Positions 4,310 to 48,049 of a stretch of 64,000 bases of DNA are shown here, one piece after another. Each line of letters begins with the position of its first letter. Position 1 is the stretch's first letter. Source of the DNA: a virus (taxonomy: Duplodnaviria; Caudoviricetes); IMG/VR virus record IMGVR_UViG_3300047160_010816, positions 1-64,000 of that record. The stretch is one strand, 5' to 3'. Made by a program: the position numbers and the translations under genes. The notes under the pieces were generated by a model. The model made no database searches, was not told where the DNA came from, and saw only the letters and a list, made by a program, of their open reading frames with translations.

Positions 4310-6283
4310 ATGACGATGGCGGCCTGTAAAGGTGGTGAGGTTTTCATGAGTCGGCACCCCGTCAACTTCGGACGGGTGGCCTGGCTTCTGGCCCACCCCT
4401 CGACCGTCAACGGTGGCAGGGTCAGGGACCTGTCCGGGTCCCAGTCCGACGGTGTGTTCCAGGGCGGCTGCGGTCTGGTCGGCAAGCCGCGCCCTGGCGG
4501 CTTCATGCGCTCCTTCGGCGGCTTCTCCCTCTCCAATGGGTTCATCAACTGCGGCCCCTCCCCGCGGCACGCCAACCTGGCCCTGAACCCGGCCATGACC
4601 GTCGCGGCCTGGGTTTACTTCACCGCCACCAATGTCAACAGCTCCGTCGTCGGCCGCGGCATCAGTTCGACGGCCGGCTGGGGCATGTTCCTGAGCTTCT
4701 CCGGCACCTGGAACCTGAACTTCGCCGCGTCCACGACCCAGGTATCCGTCAACGCGGGCTCGACCGGCCAGGCATGGTTCCGGCTGCTGTTCTCGGTCAG
4801 CACCATCAGTTACACCACCGCCCCGCAGGCGTTCCTCTACGTCAACGGCAAGCAGTTCCTGCCGACCCGGACCGCGGGCTCGGGGACCAACTCCAGCGAC
4901 GTGACGGCCAACCTCCAGATCGGCGTGGCACCCATCGGTGGCAACGCCACCAGCGGCTACATCGACGACGTGTCGGTGTGGAACCGTGCCCTGACCCCGC
5001 AGGAGGCGTACATCGACTACATGGAGACGACGGCCGGCTACCCGCGCCTCCTCCAGTACCGCTCGGTGGCCTACGCGCTGGCCCCCGGCCCCTCGACGGG
5101 CATCGCCAATGCGACGACCTTCAACGCCTCCCTGCCCTTCGCCGCCGCCATCCAGGAGATGGACGCGCACCCGTTCAACGTGTCCGCCCCTCTGGCCGGG
5201 ACGCTGACCCGCTCCTCCGCCTTCCTCCGCGGCCTGACGGGCGCATTGCCACTGGCAGGGTCGCTGGCGACCAAGACGTTCCGGGTCATCTCCCTGCCCT
5301 TCACGGCCGGGTTGTCGCTGGCGGGGACGGTGGCCGAGCGGGCGAGCAAGGTGATAGCTGCCCCCCTGACGCTGGCAGGGTCCCTGGTACGGGTCGCGGC
5401 GACCCACTACCTTCAGACCCTGACGGGAGCACTGACACTTGCAGGGGCACGGGCGGCCAAGCTGGTCGGCAAGGTCCTCAACCGGCCGCTGCCCCTGACC
5501 GGGCCGAACGTGCGGAAGGCCGACCGGGTGCCCCTCAACGTCGCCCTGCCGCTGGCCCCGGTCAAGAAGGCTCAGGCCAACAAGCGGTTCACGACCGCCA
5601 ACCTGCCGCTAGGGAGGACCTTCGCGGCCTCCAAGGCAAGGCTGCTGGTCTTCCTGGCCGCCCTGCCGCTGGGCGGTGGGTTGGCCAGCCAGGTGGGTAA
5701 GGGGTTGACGACGGGGCTGGCCCTGACCGGCGACACCATCGAGTTCGTGACCAGCATCCTCCGCCGCGGCAACATCCTGCTGACCACGACCCTTGTGAAC
5801 TCCGCCTCCAAGACCTTCACGGTCTTCCTCGGCCTGGTCGGCTTCCTGGCACCGATCCGCTCCATCGGCCTGGTCTTCGCGGCGGCGCTGGGCCTGGTCG
5901 CCCGGTCGGTGTCCACCGTCTACCAGCTGCTGAACGTGCCCCTCCCGATGCGCTGGGAGTTCATCGTCCAGCGGCGGAACCTGGGGCCGTTCCTCCAGAC
6001 CATCGTGGCCAACCTCAGCCTGAACGGCCAGCTGATGCGGTCGCAGAGCATGGGAGCAATGCAGGGGTTCCTCAGTCTGGCTGGGTCGATGACCAACACC
6101 GTCCTCCAGGGCCTGAACGTGACCCTGCCGCTGACCACCTTTATCGGACAGGCTGTGGCCGTCGTGCTGACTGCTCCTCTGGCCCTGGGCGGGGCCTTCT
6201 TCCTGGGGACGGTGGGGATGATCCTCAAGGTCTGCGGGGCGGCCTATCGGACGGTCGTGCGCGGGCGGGACGACTACAAGTGA
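4310..6283 (+). CDS. LamG/concanavalin-like domain tail or fibre protein with repeated GxLxLAGxL motifs (start 4310 or 4346)
   Basis: MTVAAWVY, LYVNG, LQIG and GYIDDVSVWNRALTPQE are LamG_3 signatures; C-terminal amphipathic repeats. Confidence 0.65.
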   Translation: MTMAACKGGEVFMSRHPVNFGRVAWLLAHPSTVNGGRVRDLSGSQSDGVFQGGCGLVGKPRPGGFMRSFGGFSLSNGFINCGPSPRHANLALNPAMTVAAWVYFTATNVNSSVVGRGISSTAGWGMFLSFSGTWNLNFAASTTQVSVNAGSTGQAWFRLLFSVSTISYTTAPQAFLYVNGKQFLPTRTAGSGTNSSDVTANLQIGVAPIGGNATSGYIDDVSVWNRALTPQEAYIDYMETTAGYPRLLQYRSVAYALAPGPSTGIANATTFNASLPFAAAIQEMDAHPFNVSAPLAGTLTRSSAFLRGLTGALPLAGSLATKTFRVISLPFTAGLSLAGTVAERASKVIAAPLTLAGSLVRVAATHYLQTLTGALTLAGARAAKLVGKVLNRPLPLTGPNVRKADRVPLNVALPLAPVKKAQANKRFTTANLPLGRTFAASKARLLVFLAALPLGGGLASQVGKGLTTGLALTGDTIEFVTSILRRGNILLTTTLVNSASKTFTVFLGLVGFLAPIRSIGLVFAAALGLVARSVSTVYQLLNVPLPMRWEFIVQRRNLGPFLQTIVANLSLNGQLMRSQSMGAMQGFLSLAGSMTNTVLQGLNVTLPLTTFIGQAVAVVLTAPLALGGAFFLGTVGMILKVCGAAYRTVVRGRDDYK

Positions 6284-9816: not shown

Positions 9817-12800
9817 GTGGCGACCACGACCGAGCTTGAGAACCTGCTCGTCCGCCTGACCGGTGACGGCTCTTCCTACCAGCGCATGCTGGAGCAAGCC
9901 CAGGAGAGCACCGTCCGGACCGGTGCCACCATCGAGTCCGAGACGCGGCGGATCGAGGGATTCATGTCCTCCCTCCAGTCCTTCGGGCAGGGGGTGGCCC
10001 AGTCGCTGGCCTTCCTCGGCATCGCCACCGCCCTGACCGGGGCGCTGCACGCCTTCGAGGATTTCGAGAAGGGGCAGATACGCCTCCGGGCCATCATCGA
10101 CGACGGCAGGCGGTCCGTGAACGCCACGATGGAGAGCTACCGCCAGTTCGTTGATTCCATCACCGACGTGACCTCCGCCACCAAGGAGCAGGTCACGCAC
10201 ATGTTGACCCAGCTGGAGATCTACGGCAAGACGGAGGACCAGGCCAAGAAGCTCGTGGCCCAGTCGCTGGCCCTGTCGGCGGCCCTCGGCATCTCGGCCG
10301 AACACGCCATGATGGCGGCGCGGGCGATGGACGAAGGGCAAATCTTCTACGCCCGCTCCATCCTCCACATGCGCGGGGTCAAGGACGCGGCCCAGGTCGT
10401 GGCCAAGTGGCAGGACGTGATCGCCAAGGGGTTCAAGATTCAGGCGGCCCTGACCGAGACGGCCAGCTTCCAGTGGGAACGACTCCAGAAGGTCACCCGT
10501 GAGCTAACGGTCCAGATGGGCGGGCTCATGGCGGAGGGGCTGGCCCCGGTCGTCAAGGCGCTGGCCAGTACCATCGACTGGTTCCGCAACCTCGACCCGA
10601 CCGTCCGCAAGGCCACCGCCGCCGTCCTGACCTTCGTGGTCGCGGCCACCGGCTTCGGCACTCTCAAGGGGCTGATGAGCACCCCGGTCGGCAGCGTCAT
10701 CAGCGCCGCCCTGGCCGGCCCCGCCACCGTCCTCCGCGGCATCCTGGGCTCCATCCCGAGCCTATGGTCAACCATCGGCACCACCGCGTCGGTGGCCGCC
10801 CGGACTGCCGCCTCGGCCCTCCTGTTCGTCATCAACCCGGTCCGGGTCCTGTCGGCCCTCCTGTCGGGTCTGCTCCTAACCACGCGGACACTGGCCACCC
10901 TGGTCGGCTTCGCCTTCAGCCCCGTCACTGTGGGAGCAATAGCCGCCGGCGTGGCCCTGGCCGGGCTGGTCAAGCAGGCCGGCGGTCTGGCGGAGGTCTG
11001 GAAGGGCATCAAGGACGCCGGCACCGCCGCCTGGGAGTGGTTGGCCCCCGTCCGGGCCGCCCTTGCCCAGCTGTTCGGCACGCTCAAGGACCTCGGCTCG
11101 ACCGCCTTCTCCGCCCTCGGCGACGCCGCCGGCAAGGTCTGGTCGGCCCTCTCGGGTGGGGGTAAGCTCGACCTCTCGACCGTCCAGCGCTCACTAGTCA
11201 TGGCCATCCTGACCGTGGAGAACTGGGTCAAGCAGGCCGCCGCCGCCCTTGCTCCTCTGTGGCAGGCCGTGGCCGACGGGGCGGTCAAGGCGGCCACCGT
11301 GGTCCGGCAGACCTGGGACGCCGTCTGGCCACAGATCGTCGCCGCCGCCAAGGCTGCCATCCCCTACCTGGTCGGCATCTGGGACAGCATCAAGCTGGCC
11401 GCCTCTGCCCTGTGGGACTGGGTAACGGCCACCGCGCCGATCGTCTGGAACGCGGTCGCGGACGCCGTCAACATGGCCACCGCCGCCGTCGGCGGTTTCC
11501 TGGACAAGAACGAAGGAGCAATCGCCTCCCTGGTCAAGCTGACCGTGGCCGCCGCGGGGGTCTACGCCGCCTTCAAGATCGCCCAGGCGGCCGTGGCCGG
11601 GGTCGTCTTCGTCTTCGGCCTGCTGGAGGCCGCCTACACGGCCCTCCACGTCCAGCAGGTCATCAGCACCATCGCCTGGGCCGCCTGGACCGCGGCCGTG
11701 GGCATCGCCGAAGGGGTCGTGCTCCTCTTCAATATCCAGCTGGCCATCTGGAAGGGCCTGTTCGCCGCCGGCATCTTCCTCATGGGGCTGTGGACGGGGG
11801 CCTCCGTGACCGCCTCCCTCGCCACGGCCGGACTGACCGGGGCCATCGCCCTGCTGGAGGCGGTCCTGACCCCGGCCGTTGTTATCGGCTTCGCCGCCGC
11901 CGTGCTCGCCTTCGCCGGTACGCTGGCCGCGGCCGGGATCGCCGCCGGGGCACTCTACGTCGCCCTCAAGGTCGTCTGGGATACCGCCCAGAACCTCCGC
12001 GCCGCCTTCTCCGGACTGACGGAAGCCGGGGGAGCGATGGATCGTATCACGGGGGTCCTGGCCGAGTGGTGGGCCATCATCCAGGAAGTGGTCAAGGCCC
12101 TGTCGGTGGATGCCTCGCTCGCCTGGGAACTGTTTGCGGCCGGGGCGCGGCTGGCCCTGTCCCAGATAGCCGACCTGTGGCCGCCCGTCTGGAATCTCAT
12201 CAAGGTCGGCTTTGAGCAAGCCTGGAACGTGGTCTGGGCCACGGCCAGGGAGTCCGCCATCGAAGGCATGGCCCAGGTCGGGGCCGCCATCGTCAACGCC
12301 CATACCTGGGCCTTCCGCCAGGTGCTGGACGCCACGGTCAAGTTCTACAACATGCTCGGCCGCGGCATCGGCGACCTCGGCACCGCACTCGGCAAGGCGT
12401 TCAAACTCCCGTTCACCATAACCCTGGCCGACATCCAGAAGGCGGTCACCGAGAACTTCGCCGACACCCTCGACAACATCCTGAGCATCGCGGAGAAAGC
12501 CCTGTTGTTCATCAACCCGGCGATGGCCGTGACCCTCATGGGGGCGAGATCGGCAGCCAAGAATGCCGCCAGTGCCGCCGCGGCGGTCTACGACGATGCG
12601 ATCAAGGCCGCCCAGGACAAGGACCTTAACGCCCTCGGCAAGGCCGTCAGGATAGCCCTGGCCCCGGCCTACGCTGCACTGAACGAGGTGGACAAGGCGA
12701 CCGCCGACTGGCTGAGTGGGGTGTCAGACAGGTCGAGGGAGGCCCAGGCAAAAGTCGTCAAGTCGGCCAGTGATGCCATCAACGAGGCCCTCCGCGGCGT

Positions 12801-13311
12801 CGCCAACGTGCCCGAGAGTGAAGCCACCAAGCAGGCGCGGAAGGACCTGGAGCACCTCCGGGCTGTCGTTGACCAGGTCCAGAACGCTATCGCCTCCGGA
12901 CTGGGGGACAAGGAAATACTACCCAAGCTCGACATCGAGAAGTGGATGAAGCAGATACGCGAGGCCCTCGATAAGGCCGGCCTCAAGGCGGAGGACTGGG
13001 CCAAGAAGGGCGGGGAGGCGGCCAAGGCGTTCGGTCGCGGCATGCACGGTGCGAAGATCGAGGCGGCCGAGTCCCTGTCGGCGGAGGCCATTACCCGCAT
13101 GGAGCATCAGGCGGCGGCCTTTCGCATGGAGACGGGGGAGGGCGGAGGACCGCCGGGAGGTGTCCAGGCGGCCGAGTCCGGCAAAGCGGAGGCGATCCAG
13201 AGGCAGGAGAAGCAGCAGGCCGCCCTCGACAAAATGGTGGCCCGTCTGGACACCCTGGTTGACCAGGGTAAGGGGGCGAAACTGGAAGTGGCACCGGCGA
13301 TGTTGGTCTGA
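9817..13311 (+). CDS. Tape measure protein
   Basis: 1164 aa, Ala-rich, periodic Trp/Phe repeats; N-terminal LLVRLTGDGSSY. Confidence 0.9.
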   Translation: MATTTELENLLVRLTGDGSSYQRMLEQAQESTVRTGATIESETRRIEGFMSSLQSFGQGVAQSLAFLGIATALTGALHAFEDFEKGQIRLRAIIDDGRRSVNATMESYRQFVDSITDVTSATKEQVTHMLTQLEIYGKTEDQAKKLVAQSLALSAALGISAEHAMMAARAMDEGQIFYARSILHMRGVKDAAQVVAKWQDVIAKGFKIQAALTETASFQWERLQKVTRELTVQMGGLMAEGLAPVVKALASTIDWFRNLDPTVRKATAAVLTFVVAATGFGTLKGLMSTPVGSVISAALAGPATVLRGILGSIPSLWSTIGTTASVAARTAASALLFVINPVRVLSALLSGLLLTTRTLATLVGFAFSPVTVGAIAAGVALAGLVKQAGGLAEVWKGIKDAGTAAWEWLAPVRAALAQLFGTLKDLGSTAFSALGDAAGKVWSALSGGGKLDLSTVQRSLVMAILTVENWVKQAAAALAPLWQAVADGAVKAATVVRQTWDAVWPQIVAAAKAAIPYLVGIWDSIKLAASALWDWVTATAPIVWNAVADAVNMATAAVGGFLDKNEGAIASLVKLTVAAAGVYAAFKIAQAAVAGVVFVFGLLEAAYTALHVQQVISTIAWAAWTAAVGIAEGVVLLFNIQLAIWKGLFAAGIFLMGLWTGASVTASLATAGLTGAIALLEAVLTPAVVIGFAAAVLAFAGTLAAAGIAAGALYVALKVVWDTAQNLRAAFSGLTEAGGAMDRITGVLAEWWAIIQEVVKALSVDASLAWELFAAGARLALSQIADLWPPVWNLIKVGFEQAWNVVWATARESAIEGMAQVGAAIVNAHTWAFRQVLDATVKFYNMLGRGIGDLGTALGKAFKLPFTITLADIQKAVTENFADTLDNILSIAEKALLFINPAMAVTLMGARSAAKNAASAAAAVYDDAIKAAQDKDLNALGKAVRIALAPAYAALNEVDKATADWLSGVSDRSREAQAKVVKSASDAINEALRGVANVPESEATKQARKDLEHLRAVVDQVQNAIASGLGDKEILPKLDIEKWMKQIREALDKAGLKAEDWAKKGGEAAKAFGRGMHGAKIEAAESLSAEAITRMEHQAAAFRMETGEGGGPPGGVQAAESGKAEAIQRQEKQQAALDKMVARLDTLVDQGKGAKLEVAPAMLV

Positions 13312-13331
13312 CGGGGATAGGTAGGAGGAGA

Positions 13332-13394
13332 GGGCGGGGGGCCAGCAGTCTATTACACGGTCTCACGTAGCAAAGCGCCGGCTGCTCCCCGCCC
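13332..13394 (-). ncRNA. Solo TIGR-like guide unit U1, antisense to the tail operon
   Basis: Minus strand AGCCGGCG-ctttgctacg-TGAGACCG-tgtaatagac-TGCTGGCC within an outer GGGCGGGG/CCCCGCCC stem. Confidence 0.8.
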
Positions 13395-13400
13395 GACTCT

Positions 13401-13430
13401 ATTATACCGTACCGGAGGGGTATGTCGCAA
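13401..13430 (-). promoter_or_regulatory. Sigma70-like promoter for U1
   Basis: TTGCGA-18-TATAAT on the minus strand; the -10 box ends 6 nt before the outer stem. Confidence 0.6.
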
Positions 13431-14836
13431 TGACCACAGCATTAGCAGGTCCCAGGACCTGGTCGATGGAGCGCGACGACGGCTCGAACCGCGAGTATAA
13501 ATTGATGCTGCGCGTCATTTCCGACTCGCCCTACGACGGTCCGGCCACCGTCCTCCAGACGCCGGGGCTGCCGACCTGGGGAGCAATCTGGGCAGTAGAC
13601 GATGATCTCGATGAATGGGCGTGGTGTCGCTGGAATGCTTCGATTAAGCCCGTCATTACAGGAGAGCCCAACTACCAATGGGACTGCGAATTTACCTTCT
13701 CCACGAAACCTCCTGATCTGAAATATTGTAAGGACTCACAAATTGAAGACCCGCTCCTCATCCCCCCGCGAGTGTCGGGCAACTTCAGCAAGGAAAAGGA
13801 AGAAGCAGTCTACGACCGTTTCGGCAAGCGCATCAAGAACAGTGCCTTCGAGCAGATACGAGGAGCAAAGGTAGAGTTCGACAAAAATAACTGGGCCGTA
13901 AAAATTGAAATGAACGTCGCCCTGCTCGACCTCTCTCTCATTACCTCAATGAAGGACTGCGTCAACAAATACCCGATGTGGGATTTACCGCCGCGGACCA
14001 TCAAGTTCGCCACCTTCTCGTGGGAACGAAAATTCTACGGCCTCTGCTATGTCTACTACGTGGTGAACTACGAATTTGAGATACGGTTCGACCCGGACAA
14101 CAAGAAGGGGACCGTCTCCGGCTGGGACAAGGATTTAATGGACGAGGGTCACAAGGTCCTTAACGGCCACTGGGGCGTCAAGACCCGGCTCCTCCCGGGT
14201 AGCACTACAGATTTCGAGCGGCAGGACCAGTGGTACATCGACGACATCGGGGATGGCATCAAGGCCATCCCGAGTAACCCGCGCCACTTCATCGAGTTCA
14301 TCGACCGCCAGGGCAACAAAGGCAGCGTAATCCTGAAGAACGGTAAACCGGCCGGGGCGCTGGTCCAGGGGGCCACCACCTTCATCACACAAGAGGGGTA
14401 CAACCCCGTCGTCGGTAATACCTTCCTGCCCATCCTTAACCAGCCGCCCCTGCCGACCGACCCGACCTCCCCGTACTCCGCCAGCGGCGGGCTCCCGCTG
14501 GAGATCATCTTCCAGGACCCGAACATGATCACAACGGATGGGTTCGTCCTCATCAAGGGCCTGGACGAGAAGGGGGTGCCGGCCACCGAGGGCCTGGTCC
14601 TGGCCGATAACACGACTGGGGTGCCGATGTCCAATGCCCCCCTCGACTGGGAGACAGAGACCCTCTTTTCCCACGTGGATTCAATCGAGGTCGTAGGCTT
14701 TGACTTTGAGGGGGTCGCGACATTGCCGGTCCTGTGGGTCCAGACTCCCTACCGATTCGAGGACGCCGGCAACATCCACGTGGAGAAGTATGACGAGGCC
14801 GACTTCACCCTGCTGGGGATACCCCTCGACTTCTAA
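13430..14836 (+). CDS. Distal tail/hub-like protein (hypothetical)
   Basis: 468 aa immediately after the tape measure gene. Confidence 0.5.
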   Translation: MTTALAGPRTWSMERDDGSNREYKLMLRVISDSPYDGPATVLQTPGLPTWGAIWAVDDDLDEWAWCRWNASIKPVITGEPNYQWDCEFTFSTKPPDLKYCKDSQIEDPLLIPPRVSGNFSKEKEEAVYDRFGKRIKNSAFEQIRGAKVEFDKNNWAVKIEMNVALLDLSLITSMKDCVNKYPMWDLPPRTIKFATFSWERKFYGLCYVYYVVNYEFEIRFDPDNKKGTVSGWDKDLMDEGHKVLNGHWGVKTRLLPGSTTDFERQDQWYIDDIGDGIKAIPSNPRHFIEFIDRQGNKGSVILKNGKPAGALVQGATTFITQEGYNPVVGNTFLPILNQPPLPTDPTSPYSASGGLPLEIIFQDPNMITTDGFVLIKGLDEKGVPATEGLVLADNTTGVPMSNAPLDWETETLFSHVDSIEVVGFDFEGVATLPVLWVQTPYRFEDAGNIHVEKYDEADFTLLGIPLDF

Positions 14837-36462: not shown

Positions 36463-36631
36463 TGTCTTCCTCTCTCTTTGGTTGAGAATCCCGCCTCTGC
36501 GTTGACCGGACTTGGCAACCGGCACCGGGCACACGCTCGGTGGTCGCATTAAGGAAAAGAGGGGAGGGCCGGCATCGGTTCCTACGGTATCACCCCGTGG
36601 CACGCCGGTTCCTCCCCCTGTCTCTCACTGG

Positions 36632-44485: not shown

Positions 44486-44512
44486 TTGACAGGGCGGGGA
44501 CTATGGTATGCT
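44486..44512 (+). promoter_or_regulatory. Promoter immediately upstream of guide unit U2
   Basis: TTGACA-15-TATGCT with extended -10 TGG; the unit starts ~9 nt downstream. Confidence 0.6.
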
Positions 44513-44647: not shown

Positions 44648-45250
44648 ATGCCCCTTCTACCTACCCAGACCCCGTTGCAGTGTCACCTCAAGCGCTGGCG
44701 ACTCGGCTGCGGTGCCCCCGAGTGCCAGGAAGCGTTCAAGCGGGTCTTGTGCAAGGGGACCGTCCCCTGCCAGGTGCTCTTCATCGGCCAGGCACCGGGC
44801 AAGACGGAGAACGTGGTCGGCAAACCCTTCGAGGGCCAGGCCGGCCGGCTCCTCGACCGCATCGTCCACGCCGCCCTCGGGGCGCGTGAGCCGCCGGTGA
44901 CGTGGGCGATGACGAACCTGGTCTGTTGCTTCCCCGGCGCGGGGGAGGACGGCAAGGACCTCCAGCCGGACCCGGAGCAGATCGAGAGCTGCTCCTCCAG
45001 ACTGGTGGAGTTCGTGGCCCTCTGCGACCCCCTGCTGCTCGTCTGCGTCGGCAGTATGGCCCGCGACTGGACCGACCCGCTTCTGAAGTTCTCGGTGAAG
45101 TTCCACCGCAACATCCCGAGCATCGACATCCGCCACCCCGCCTCGTTCCTCCACGCCAAGGTGCCGGAGTCCCAGCTCCAGCAGGGCATCCGCAGGGCGA
45201 CCGCCGCGGTCCGCACCGCCCTGGAGGAAGTGTTAGCCAGAACCGTATAG
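44648..45250 (+). CDS. Uracil-DNA glycosylase family 4
   Basis: LFIGQAPG, GKPFEGQAG, TNLVCCFP and HPA motifs; Cys for an Fe-S cluster. Confidence 0.85.
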   Translation: MPLLPTQTPLQCHLKRWRLGCGAPECQEAFKRVLCKGTVPCQVLFIGQAPGKTENVVGKPFEGQAGRLLDRIVHAALGAREPPVTWAMTNLVCCFPGAGEDGKDLQPDPEQIESCSSRLVEFVALCDPLLLVCVGSMARDWTDPLLKFSVKFHRNIPSIDIRHPASFLHAKVPESQLQQGIRRATAAVRTALEEVLARTV

Positions 45251-46180: not shown

Positions 46181-47284
46181 ATGCCACCTGTAAAGAACCG
46201 CCCCAGTGGAAACGCCAACGGAACTAATGCCCCGGCGAACGATCAGCTGAGACCGAGAAGTCCGGTACCGGGGCCATCTCCCTCCAGGAATGGGAAGGGC
46301 CGCAGGCCAGTCCCGGCCCGGGTCGATGCAGACCTGATTAAACAACTCCAGAACTCGCAGCGGCTGCGGCAGCAGGTAATCAAGAGTCGCAACATGCAGG
46401 CCAACCGGCTGAAGGCCATCGTGGCCGGTACGATGGGCTACCGGTCGGGGCTAGAGAAGAAGGAGCGGCTGGCCCTGTTCAAGGCCGCCTCGGCCCGCAT
46501 TGAGCAGATCGTCCGTGGCGAGTTACCGGGCGATGAGATGGAGGACCTGGTCAAGACCACCCGAATCGGCATCGACGCCTTTGACCTGATGGAGGGCAAC
46601 CTCAAGGCCACGCTGGAGGACCTGGCCAAACGGCTGCCGCCCTCCATCGTCGAGTGGGTCGGCAAGCCGGAACAGATGGGCTTCTCCTGGCTCTCCCTGG
46701 CGCAAATCGTGGGCGAGGCAGGGGACCTCTGGAACTATCCCACCCACAGTCACCTGTGGCGGCGGATGGGCTGCGCCCCGTGGGAGTGGAACGGGGAGAC
46801 ACATATGGGCTCGACCTGGCGCTACCTGAAAAAGCTGCCGTCGGATCAATGGGAGCAATATGGCTACCCGCCGCGACGGAGGAGCATCGGATACGTGATT
46901 GGCGAGAATCTGATGCGGGGCAACATGCTCCGCGAGAGGAAGGGTAAAAAGGAGGCGGAGGCCGGCGTACCCCGTGCTGAGTCCGTTGTGAATGGTGCCG
47001 ACCCCGCCTCCGATTCCTCCGACCCGGTGGAGGACCCGAAGGTGAGGGTCCTGTGGAAAGGCCCATATCGTCTCCATTATGAGCAGAAACGAGCCGAGTT
47101 CCTCCAGGCCCACCCCGACGCCCGCAAGGGGCACCAGCACCTCCACGGCATGCTCCTCGCCTTCAAGCTGCTATTGAAGCAGCTCTGGTGCCAGTGGCAC
47201 GGAGTCAACAATCCGCCCCGCTTCCGACCCGAGCGGGATGCCCGGAGGCGGGCCAAGTTCCAGGGCCGGCGCAGCCAGAAATGA
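46181..47284 (+). CDS. Nop/IS110-C-terminal-domain RNA-binding protein without a nuclease domain (TasA-like)
   Basis: Coiled-coil N-half; LAQIVGEAGDLWNYPTHSHLWRRMGCAP, GPYRLHYEQKRAEF and HxHLHGMLLAFKLLLKQLW parallel Transposase_20/Nop motifs; no DEDD RuvC or HNH motif seen; next to a dual-spacer array. Confidence 0.8.
   Translation: MPPVKNRPSGNANGTNAPANDQLRPRSPVPGPSPSRNGKGRRPVPARVDADLIKQLQNSQRLRQQVIKSRNMQANRLKAIVAGTMGYRSGLEKKERLALFKAASARIEQIVRGELPGDEMEDLVKTTRIGIDAFDLMEGNLKATLEDLAKRLPPSIVEWVGKPEQMGFSWLSLAQIVGEAGDLWNYPTHSHLWRRMGCAPWEWNGETHMGSTWRYLKKLPSDQWEQYGYPPRRRSIGYVIGENLMRGNMLRERKGKKEAEAGVPRAESVVNGADPASDSSDPVEDPKVRVLWKGPYRLHYEQKRAEFLQAHPDARKGHQHLHGMLLAFKLLLKQLWCQWHGVNNPPRFRPERDARRRAKFQGRRSQK
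46229..46274 (+). ncRNA. Guide unit U9 embedded in the Tas CDS
   Basis: GCCCCGGCG-aacgatcagc-TGAGACCG-agaagtccgg-TACCGGGGC. Confidence 0.65.
46960..47003 (+). ncRNA. Guide unit U10 embedded in the Tas CDS
   Basis: GGCCGGCG-taccccgtgc-TGAGTCCG-ttgtgaatgg-TGCCGACC. Confidence 0.65.
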
Positions 47285-47827: not shown

Positions 47828-48049
47828 ATGAACCTTGACAAGGAAAACGCCCTGAAGGCCCTTGACGTGTACAACCGGCTGATCGGCCGGACCAAGGGCG
47901 AGGAGCTGACCAAGGCCGAGATCGACTTCGTCATTGAATTCCTCGGCCTAGCGGCCAAGCAGCTGCCGGCCGTCGGTATGAGCGGGGAGCTGACTACGAA
48001 GGTGACACGTGGGAAGAGTAAGGAGGTGAAGAGTGCTGAAACGACTTGA
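47828..48049 (+). CDS. Hypothetical protein
   Basis: AAAGGAGCAA RBS. Confidence 0.55.
   Translation: MNLDKENALKALDVYNRLIGRTKGEELTKAEIDFVIEFLGLAAKQLPAVGMSGELTTKVTRGKSKEVKSAETT

What the first reader, a model, noticed from the sequence alone, without database searches (positions are those of the whole stretch)
13332..13430. Antisense solo guide gene with its own sigma70 promoter inside the late tail operon
Seen: the only minus-strand unit (U1) fills the gap between the tape measure gene and the next tail gene. It has an extra 8-bp outer stem (GGGCGGGG/CCCCGCCC) and a TTGCGA-18-TATAAT promoter whose -10 box ends 6 nt before the stem. U2 (TTGACA/TATGCT at 44486-44512) and U4 (TATAGT at 45246, T-run after the unit) also have adjacent promoter elements. 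Inference: these units are true ncRNA genes, and U1 can be expressed early, independently of late transcription.
Basis: partly seen in the sequence, partly recalled or inferred. Interest (0 to 1): 0.7.

Follow-up and report, generated by a model that had tools for sequence, protein, structure and literature searches.

The report
Solo antisense TIGR guide-RNA minigene
The 118-base gap between a phage's tape-measure gene and the next tail gene holds one backwards-facing copy of the phage's two-spacer TIGR guide-RNA unit with a strong bacterial-type promoter of its own, a new layout of a system first described in 2025.

Summary
U1 (13340-13383, minus strand) is a real member of a family of at least 55 units (edge TGCCGGCG, 9-nt spacer, loop TGAGACCG, 9-nt spacer). 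A model built without U1 finds it at E 5e-4, and U1 keeps all ten invariant columns.

- **Anatomy:** the 8-bp outer stem is there. So is TTGCGA-18-TATAAT, whose -10 box ends 6 nt before the stem.
- **Promoter:** it is one of only five sigma70-like loci in the 77-kb genome. Local shuffles give p about 3e-4.
- **The error:** U1 is not the only minus-strand unit. A second lies at 36567-36610, inside a minus-strand gene block. U1 is the only unit antisense to its neighbours.
- **Context:** the phage encodes a nuclease-less TasA (46181-47284). Its model matches TasR and TasH at Z 10.5-11.3. In three relatives the tape-measure and tail genes abut, so U1 looks like an insertion.

Best reading (0.6): U1 is a promoter-driven stem-loop tigRNA minigene serving TasA, transcribed by host RNA polymerase independently of late transcription. 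Expression, timing and target are untested. No target exists in the phage itself.

This is a new variant of a known kind (TIGR-Tas). This scan has noted similar solo guide minigenes in other phages.

The parts
13425..13430 (-). -35 hexamer TTGCGA (4/6). It overlaps the A of the tail-gene start codon on the other strand.
   Evidence: start codon fixed
13401..13406 (-). -10 hexamer TATAAT (6/6), 18 nt after the -35. It is one of only 9 TATAAT hexamers on both strands of the 77-kb genome.
13394..13394 (-). Predicted transcription start (G, 7 nt after the -10), which is the first base of the outer stem.
   Evidence: read from the sequence; inference from sigma70 promoter geometry
13387..13394 (-). 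Outer stem, 5' arm GGGCGGGG.
13376..13383 (-). 5' edge AGCCGGCG (family consensus TGCCGGCG). It forms the inner stem with the 3' edge.
13366..13374 (-). Spacer A, TTTGCTACG (9 nt).
13358..13365 (-). Loop repeat TGAGACCG, an exact match to the consensus. The invariant TG and CG (box D-like and box C-like) are kept.
13348..13356 (-). Spacer B, GTAATAGAC (9 nt).
13340..13347 (-). 3' edge TGCTGGCC. Its C-to-T change gives a G.U pair on the minus-strand RNA and an A.C mismatch on the plus strand. Units at 64295 and 66772 carry the same variant.
13332..13339 (-). Outer stem, 3' arm CCCCGCCC.
13312..13331 (-). Pyrimidine-rich 3' tail (TCTCCTCCTACCTATCCCCG on the minus strand), like the C/U-rich tails behind other solo units and array ends. 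There is no T-run terminator.
9817..13311 (+). Tape measure gene (upstream neighbour, opposite strand).
13430..14836 (+). Next tail gene (468 aa; no named family; conserved directly after the tape measure gene in relatives).
46181..47284 (+). tasA: nuclease-less coiled-coil plus Nop-domain protein, the presumed partner of U1, 33 kb away.

Best explanation
U1 is a self-contained guide-RNA minigene of the phage's TIGR-TasA system, inserted backwards into the normally tight junction between the tape measure gene and the next tail gene.

Proposed mechanism:
1. Host sigma70-type RNA polymerase binds TTGCGA-18-TATAAT and starts at G13394.
2. The first 63 nt (13394 down to 13332) fold into a stem-loop tigRNA. 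An 8-bp outer stem and a 6-7-bp edge stem close a loop that holds spacer A, the conserved UGAGACCG element and spacer B.
3. A dimer of the nuclease-less TasA (46181-47284) binds the RNA.
4. The two 9-nt spacers pair with opposite strands of an 18-bp DNA site, and the complex blocks transcription or another DNA transaction there.
5. The target is outside the phage, in the host or a competing element.
6. Because U1 is antisense to the late operon, it cannot be produced from the late transcript. It therefore depends on its own promoter and can be made before late transcription starts.

Shown here: family membership, anatomy, non-random promoter, TasA fold, insertion at a tight junction.
Inferred: transcription, TasA loading, timing, repression, target.
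For: 1. **Family member.** A covariance model built without U1 finds it at 26.5 bits, E 5e-4, and only on the minus strand. Nothing else in 1-44 kb scores above 15 bits except the unit at 36567. U1 keeps all 10 invariant columns of the 53-unit alignment.
2. **The family is a TIGR system.**
   - Arrays are phased at 36 nt and units hold two 9-nt variable spacers.
   - The stem covaries: score 0.173 against 0.059 in shuffles, reached by 0 of 500 shuffles.
   - The TasA model has pLDDT 82. Its top ten Foldseek hits are all TasR or TasH. VIA Z is 11.3 to TasR 9mty (Nop part only), 10.5-11.0 to TasH, 8.2 to IS621 and 4.4 to Nop5.
   - TasA relatives at 40-44% identity carry the same unit geometry with variable stems.
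3. **Promoter.**
   - It scores 10/12.
   - Only 5 loci in 154 kb of both strands reach 10/12, against 1.1 expected. Four of the five lie in intergenic DNA in front of co-oriented genes or units.
   - Local shuffles give p about 3e-4.
4. **Promoter and unit go together elsewhere.**
   - -10-like hexamers lie 0-25 nt upstream of units 7 times against 0.8-1.5 expected, and 6 of these are at leading units.
   - In relative L128 the leading unit has TATAAT 7 nt before its stem.
5. **Only U1 needs a promoter.** 54 of 55 units are co-oriented with the surrounding genes. The single antisense unit is the single unit with a >=10/12 promoter.
6. **Insertion.** In three relatives the tape-measure-like gene and the tail gene are -4 to +12 nt apart. 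A fourth carries an antisense 190-aa gene at the same junction.
7. **Published function.** Stem-loop tigRNAs with extended stems bind TasA, and TasA represses transcription (PMC12045711; 10.64898/2026.09.09.750476; 10.64898/2026.08.11.744272).
Against: - There are no expression data of any kind.
- U1 is the lowest-scoring clear unit: 26.5 bits, against 30-50 for the units the model was built from and 37.4 for the other held-out unit. It could be a decaying copy.
- No intrinsic terminator follows it, so the 3' end needs processing that is not demonstrated.
- This TasA family shows no conserved C-terminal Y/H processing loop.
- No target was found. The phage itself has no site within 3 of 18 mismatches beyond control level.
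- The host is unknown, so use of sigma70-type promoters is inferred only from enrichment.
- There are no close relatives (best 41-50% protein identity), so conservation of U1 cannot be tested.
- Four bases of each spacer can pair with the other across the loop, which would have to open for TasA binding.
Confidence: 0.6

Rival explanations
1. U1 is a dead or decaying unit. A unit was copied into the gap in the wrong orientation and is not used. The promoter-like hexamers are leftovers of AT-rich cassette flanks plus the tail gene's own start region.
For: - U1 has the lowest model score of all clear units.
- Both edges depart from the consensus.
- There is no terminator.
- The -35 is made of the tail gene's start codon region, and the promoter spacer contains the reverse complement of its ribosome-binding site. 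Part of the 'promoter' therefore exists for another reason.
- There is no conservation evidence.
Against: - All 10 invariant columns are intact, and the one near-invariant change keeps pairing as G.U.
- The loop is an exact consensus match.
- A perfect TATAAT at the right distance from the stem has p about 3e-4 locally for the full promoter and 0.014 for the -10 alone.
- The same -10-to-stem arrangement recurs at other leading units and in relative L128.
Confidence: 0.2
2. The element works on the plus strand, as an RNA hairpin within the late mRNA. It could be a processing or stability site, or an attenuator that sets the tape-measure to tail-protein ratio. Alternatively it could be an 'anti-guide' complementary to a guide made elsewhere.
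For: - The plus-strand RNA folds almost as well: -33.8 against -34.3 kcal/mol, z about -3.1.
- It lies inside a transcribed late operon, so the plus-strand hairpin will certainly be made.
Against: - Every family-specific feature reads on the minus strand.
- The invariant G10.U39 pair and the G.U at column 42 become A.C mismatches on the plus strand.
- No terminator-like T-run follows on either strand.
- Relatives do without any spacer at this junction.
- No other unit shares U1's spacers, so there is nothing for an anti-guide to sponge except U1 itself.
Confidence: 0.12
3. U1 is a DNA-level site rather than a gene. It could be a landing pad or roadblock bound by TasA complexes or another protein, or a recombination scar.
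For: - The edges are palindromic (GCCGGC).
- TasA complexes bind DNA (10.64898/2026.09.09.750476).
- Three units in the strict list (63098, 71731, 71983) carry a spacer B that is the reverse complement of the loop repeat, so they could address unit-like DNA.
Against: - No unit's spacer pair matches the U1 region within 3 of 18 mismatches.
- Stem covariation (G-C to C-G flips) and the invariant G.U point to RNA pairing.
Confidence: 0.05

Closest known systems
Stem-loop TIGR arrays with nuclease-less TasA (PlTasA: Faure et al. 2025, PMC12045711, Fig. 7; Guan et al. 2026, 10.64898/2026.08.11.744272; BlTasA/MbTasA: Xu et al. 2026, 10.64898/2026.09.09.750476)
   Same: - Two 9-nt spacers are flanked by conserved two-base box motifs.
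- The 5' and 3' ends form one extended stem.
- The partner protein is coiled coil plus Nop domain with no nuclease.
- Units can lie upstream of, downstream of and inside tas.
- The protein family lacks a conserved C-terminal Y/H loop.
   Different: - U1 is a single unit 33 kb from tas, on the strand opposite to all neighbouring genes, inside the tail gene block, with its own consensus-like promoter.
- Published loci were analysed within about 5 kb of tas, and whether units have their own promoters was left open.
- No CUU follows U1's stem; the tail is UCUCCUCC.
Dual-repeat TIGR arrays (FpTasA, TaTasR, SpTasH; PMC12045711)
   Same: - The same phage has strictly 36-nt phased arrays of edge and loop repeats built from the same repeat sequences as U1.
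- Some arrays begin with a -10-like box abutting the edge, so the transcript would begin inside an edge repeat, as described for array starts.
   Different: - U1 is not in an array and has an extra outer stem.
- Processing by a Tas Y/H dyad is not supported for this protein family (inconclusive).
Phage morons (independent transcription units inserted between late genes; established knowledge from lambdoid phages)
   Same: - U1 sits between two genes that abut in relatives.
- It has its own promoter.
- It is oriented independently of the late operon.
- Relative L123 has a protein-coding antisense insert at the very same junction.
   Different: - The cargo is a 63-nt guide RNA, not a protein gene.
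- There is no recognisable terminator.
- The phage has no integrase, so prophage expression is unlikely to be the purpose.
Archaeal box C/D sRNAs and IS110 bridge RNAs
   Same: They have a bipartite guide architecture and are bound by Nop-fold proteins. The TasA model matches IS621 at Z 8.2 and Nop5 at Z 4.4.
   Different: - There are no K-turn box C/D consensus sequences, no fibrillarin or L7Ae partner, and no DEDD recombinase domain.
- There is no Rfam match.

Membership tests
TIGR-Tas system (tigRNA unit) | A Tas protein (coiled coil plus Nop domain) is encoded by the same genome. | tested here: met
   ORF 46181-47284. AF2 model pLDDT 82. The top 10 Foldseek hits are all TasR or TasH. VIA Z is 11.3 to 9mty (residues 130-303, the Nop part) and 10.5-11.0 to TasH. 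Sequence-level hits are weak (profile against 9mty, E 0.049). No Pfam hit.
TIGR-Tas system (tigRNA unit) | The unit reads edge or stem, 9-nt spacer A, conserved loop element, 9-nt spacer B, edge or stem. Arrays are phased at 36 nt. | tested here: met
   There are 55 strict units. Arrays with exact 36-nt spacing lie at 63.1, 64.0, 66.6, 70.8 and 71.8-72.0 kb. U1 has the exact 8+10+8+10+8 geometry.
TIGR-Tas system (tigRNA unit) | Conserved box C-like and box D-like nucleotides flank each spacer. | tested here: met
   Invariant columns are G10, T21, G22, C27, G28, T39 and C41 (TG starts and CG ends each repeat). U1 keeps all of them. Their identity with the published box C/D contacts was not checked structurally.
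TIGR-Tas system (tigRNA unit) | The unit's ends pair, with covariation. | tested here: met
   96% of cells are paired. Three pairs change on both sides. The covariation score is reached by 0 of 500 shuffles. U1 has a 6-7-bp edge stem with G.U plus an 8-bp outer stem.
TIGR-Tas system (tigRNA unit) | The unit is transcribed, processed and bound by Tas. | not testable with these tools
   This needs RNA-seq or pull-down. Only promoter statistics are available.
TIGR-Tas system (tigRNA unit) | A DNA target has adjacent matches to spacer A on one strand and spacer B on the other. | tested here: inconclusive
   No site in the 77-kb phage lies within 3 of 18 mismatches for U1. Over all units there were 61 hits, against 35-62 in mispaired controls. 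The host genome is unknown.
Dual-repeat TIGR subtype (Tas self-processing) | A conserved Y/H dyad sits on a C-terminal loop of the Nop domain. | tested here: inconclusive
   Proteins of this family end soon after the last helix, and their tails are unconserved. No residue-level alignment to SpTasH Y289/H296 was obtained.
Sigma70-type promoter | -35 and -10 hexamers lie 16-18 nt apart, with a purine start about 7 nt after the -10. | tested here: met
   TTGCGA-18-TATAAT scores 10/12, and G13394 lies 7 nt downstream. Local shuffle p is about 3e-4. Activity was not tested.
Intrinsic terminator | A G+C-rich hairpin with a small loop is followed by a T-run. | tested here: not met
   No terminator-like site overlaps 13312-13430 on either strand. 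The tails are TCTCCTCC (minus strand) and GACTCTAT (plus strand).
Phage moron | An independent promoter-to-terminator unit lies between genes that are adjacent in relatives. | tested here: inconclusive
   Adjacent in relatives: met. Promoter: predicted. Terminator: not found. The cargo is an RNA, not a protein.

The most novel reading that the evidence does not exclude
The antisense placement is itself the regulatory device.
- U1 is made from its own host-type promoter only until the late operon fires.
- Convergent late transcription then occludes the promoter, whose -35 overlaps the tail gene's start codon.
- The late mRNA also carries a perfect complement that titrates the remaining guide.

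One RNA-guided repression event would therefore be confined to the early phase of infection, as a guide RNA with a built-in timer. Similar solo guides that this scan noted in tail and baseplate operons of other phages would then be a general strategy.
Probability: 0.2. Interest if true: 0.75.

Novelty: new variant of a known kind. Interest (0 to 1): 0.52.

Why it matters
- **It bears on an open question.** The published TIGR-Tas work says it cannot tell whether guide units are cut out of longer transcripts or made from their own promoters, and calls for start-site mapping (10.64898/2026.09.09.750476, Discussion). U1 is a natural clean case. Being antisense to everything around it, it can only be made from its own promoter, and the predicted start coincides with the first base of the stem. 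One 5'-end mapping experiment would settle the point for this family.
- **Guides can lie far from tas.** U1 is 33 kb from tas, inside a structural operon. Tools that scan a few kb around tas would miss such guides.
- **Possible timing control.** If the timing idea holds, a phage can schedule RNA-guided repression by where and in which direction it places a guide.

Tried and rejected
- **Rfam:** no family at gathering score in the window. Only sub-threshold generic miRNA-hairpin hits over 13250-13480.
- **tRNA/tmRNA:** none in the window. None in a tRNA-like looking stretch of L128.
- **IMG/VR pattern scans:** the 15-base pattern gave only single chance hits. The 29-base two-edge pattern gave two hits. 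The one read (L121) has no array; L122 was not read. No close relative carrying the same repeats turned up.
- **Relatives of the tail protein:** none in IMG/VR or in GenBank phages. TasA also has no match in GenBank phages. The best relatives anywhere are 41-50% identical, so conservation of U1 could not be tested.
- **Whole-record search of relative L128:** The one relative that could be searched whole (L130's 73.8-kb contig) has 13 units, all next to tas and none dispersed.
- **Self-targeting:** no excess over controls.
- **Terminator reading:** not met.
- **Operator search:** the only repeat of the promoter region elsewhere is an 11-mer (13404 and 71679). About 1.5 such matches are expected by chance, so it was rejected.
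- **Sequence-level identification of TasA:** Pfam found nothing. PDB phmmer returned only a coiled-coil design.
- **Integrases:** PF00589 and PF00239 were not found.
- **Partial complementarity of U1's spacers to units at 67.7 kb:** 7-8-nt matches 54 nt apart, seen by eye. Judged to be chance.
- **My own mid-session note that tas starts near 46394:** withdrawn. The conserved N-terminal helix begins at codon 51 of the ORF, and ATG 46181 is the only upstream in-frame ATG.

Full report
**What is there.** The window is the first 64 kb of a 77,187-bp virus record with 64% G+C. Genes run on the plus strand from 1 to 33 kb: structural genes, the tape measure at 9817-13311 (PHROG tape measure, E 4e-16), tail genes and a glycan block. 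They run on the minus strand from 33.1 to 42.0 kb, and on the plus strand again from 42.7 kb to the end.

The gap 13312-13429 holds the following on the minus strand:
- TTGCGA (13430-13425), 18 nt, then TATAAT (13406-13401);
- 6 nt, then GGGCGGGG (13394-13387) and AGC;
- the unit AGCCGGCG / C TTTGCTACG / TGAGACCG / T GTAATAGAC / TGCTGGCC (13383-13340);
- CCCCGCCC (13339-13332) and a pyrimidine-rich tail.

The tail gene starts at ATG 13430, because two homologues align from residue 1. The -35 hexamer therefore overlaps that start codon, and the module fills the gap.

**Is it a member of the repeat family?** A strict scan finds 55 units of geometry 8+10+8+10+8 in the genome. Aligned, the 53 plus-strand units give the consensus TGCCGGCGT-N9-TGAGACCGT-N9-TGCCGGCG with ten invariant columns. 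The edges pair in 96% of cells, with G-C to C-G flips and an invariant G.U. The covariation score is 0.173 against 0.059 in shuffles, reached by 0 of 500 shuffles.

A covariance model built from those 53 units was searched over window 1-44000 on both strands with filters off. It gave two hits: 36565-36612(-) at 37.4 bits and U1 at 13338-13385(-) at 26.5 bits, E 5e-4. The next hit scored 15 bits. U1 keeps every invariant column. Its one departure from a near-invariant column (C to T at column 42) preserves pairing as G.U on the minus-strand RNA, and the same variant occurs in two other units. U1 is nevertheless the lowest-scoring clear unit.

U1 is not the only minus-strand unit. The unit at 36567-36610 lies between two minus-strand genes and is co-oriented with them. 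So 54 of 55 units run with local transcription, and U1 is the only antisense one.

The outer stem is also not unique. Units at 36567, 45322, 46960 and 64166 have 6-8-bp G/C-rich outer stems, for example GGGGAGG/CCTCCCC.

**What the family is.**
- The ORF 46181-47284 has about 155 homologues of unknown function.
- An AlphaFold model of its 296-residue core has pLDDT 82.
- The ten best Foldseek matches in the PDB are all TasR or TasH.
- VIA-align gives Z 11.3 to TasR 9mty (aligned to residues 130-303, the Nop part only), 10.5-11.0 to TasH, 8.2 to the IS621 recombinase and 4.4 to Nop5.
- There is no nuclease domain, so the protein is a TasA.

The unit geometry, the 36-nt phasing and the two 9-nt spacers match the published definition (PMC12045711). 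Relatives of this TasA at 40-44% identity (L128, L129, L130) carry units CG-N10-TG..ACCG-N10-TG closed by variable 5-14-bp stems and followed by C/U-rich linkers. That is the stem-loop flavour with a conserved loop, which Faure et al. describe as intermediate between the two array types. U1, with its extended stem, has that architecture. In PlTasA the RNA ends form a single extended stem, and each spacer forms nine base pairs with the DNA (10.64898/2026.08.11.744272).

**Is the promoter more than chance?**
- Genome-wide, only five loci reach 10/12 under the scan's rule: 13401(-), 39297(-), 42491(-), 62289(+) and 65777(+). A Markov model expects 1.1 +/- 1.3.
- Four of the five lie in the 11.5% of the genome that is intergenic, in front of co-oriented genes or units.
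- Shuffling the local 60 nt produced a promoter this good, ending 4-9 nt before the stem, in 60 of 200,000 trials. A -10 box alone appeared with p = 0.014.
- -10-like hexamers (at least 5/6) lie 0-25 nt upstream of units seven times, against 0.8 expected at uniform density or 1.5 at intergenic density. Six are at leading units: 13340, 45259, 63962, 66628, 68534 and 69092.
- In relative L128 the leading unit has TATAAT 7 nt before its stem.
- U1 is the only unit with a full 10/12 promoter, and it is the only unit that cannot be supplied by a sense operon transcript.

**Is it an insertion?** In three relatives of the tail gene (L124-L126) the preceding tape-measure-like gene ends between 4 nt inside and 12 nt before the tail gene's start. 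In a fourth (L123) the same junction holds an antisense 190-aa gene with a long upstream region. The junction is therefore normally tight and occasionally accepts antisense inserts. U1's module is such an insert with an RNA cargo.

**What could not be shown.**
- No terminator follows U1 on either strand.
- This TasA family has no conserved C-terminal loop that could hold the Y/H processing dyad of SpTasH (PMC13421893). The 3' end would therefore depend on host RNases, as proposed for stem-loop systems.
- No spacer pair, U1's included, has a target in the phage beyond control level.
- U1's spacers are AT-rich: 39% G+C, against 53-56% for all spacers and 64% for the genome.
- The host is unknown. 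The phage and its TasA have no relatives among GenBank phages. The only genome hit is a 73.8-kb contig binned with a Dehalococcoidia MAG, where all 13 units sit next to tas.
- No integrase was found, so expression from a prophage is an unlikely purpose.

**Mechanism proposed.** Host RNA polymerase starts at G13394. The nascent 63 nt (13394 down to 13332) fold at -34 kcal/mol, z = -3.2. TasA binds the RNA. The complex then occupies an 18-bp site outside the phage and blocks it, as shown for other TasA proteins (10.64898/2026.09.09.750476). Independence from late transcription follows from the orientation. Early timing, and shut-off by convergent late transcription, are inferences.

**Verdict.** This is a real feature of a known kind of system in a layout not described in the papers read here. 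Similar solo guide minigenes have been noted by this scan in other phages (e1-5324586, e1-5855587, e1-3415265, e1-5704773). I did not re-test those notes.

Noticed in passing
window 36567-36610 (-): A second minus-strand unit: AACCGGCG / TGATACCG / TGCCGGCC, with outer stem GGGGAGG/CCTCCCC and a TCTTTTCCTT tail. It lies between a 525-aa gene and a UvrD-like helicase gene of the minus-strand block.
   Followed up: partly
window 13340, 36567, 45322, 46960; L127:2166-2209 (genome 64166): Five solo units form a 'long-stem' subclass. They have degenerate edges and an extra 6-8-bp G/C-rich outer stem, often GGGGAGG/CCTCCCC.
   Followed up: partly
window 46230-46273 and 46960-47003: Two units lie in frame inside tasA. 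The first is in the low-complexity N-terminal 50 residues. The second maps to the low-confidence loop of the model (residues 189-204 of the 296-aa core; pLDDT below 50 at 191-206). This matches the published remark that intragenic units fall in disordered regions.
   Followed up: partly
window 63956-63969; L127:6528-6541 (genome 68528-68541): At two array or unit starts a -10-like box abuts the edge (GATAAT-C-GCCGGCG and TATAAT-C-GCCGGCG). A transcript would begin inside the edge repeat, near where mature 36-nt tigRNAs start.
   Followed up: partly
L127:3742-3777 (genome 65742-65777): The same promoter variant as U1's (TTGCGA-18-TATAAT) lies inside the 3' end of gene 64347-66023, about 850 nt upstream of the seven-unit array at 66.6 kb.
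   Followed up: no
window 47971-47991 against the unit at L127:4844-4887 (genome 66844): Spacer A plus the reverse complement of spacer B of this unit matches 47971-47991 with 1 mismatch in 18 if a 3-nt gap is allowed. About 0.05 such hits are expected over all units and geometries. It is the only near-perfect candidate self-target, inside a 73-aa ORF.
   Followed up: no
window 63098; L127:9731, 9983 (genome 71731, 71983): Three units in the strict list carry spacer B = ACGGTCTCA, the reverse complement of the loop repeat. Each has the non-consensus loop TGAAACCGA. Another note of this scan reports a fourth.
   Followed up: no
L127:5359-5402 and 5739-5782 (genome 67359, 67739); L127:2295 and 4772: Spacers are duplicated. 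Two units 380 nt apart have identical spacer pairs, and two others share spacer B (CGGCGTCAAG) together with the TGCTGGCG edge variant.
   Followed up: no
L123:1434-2500: In a relative of the tail module, the tape-measure/tail-gene junction holds an antisense 190-aa gene with a hydrophobic N-terminus and a 495-nt upstream region. It is a classical moron at the same spot as U1.
   Followed up: partly
window 13324-13328 and 13414-13418: GGAGG occurs on both sides of the U1 module, 90 nt apart. The left copy has no start codon after it. This could be a duplicated ribosome-binding site left by the insertion, or the complement of U1's pyrimidine tail.
   Followed up: no
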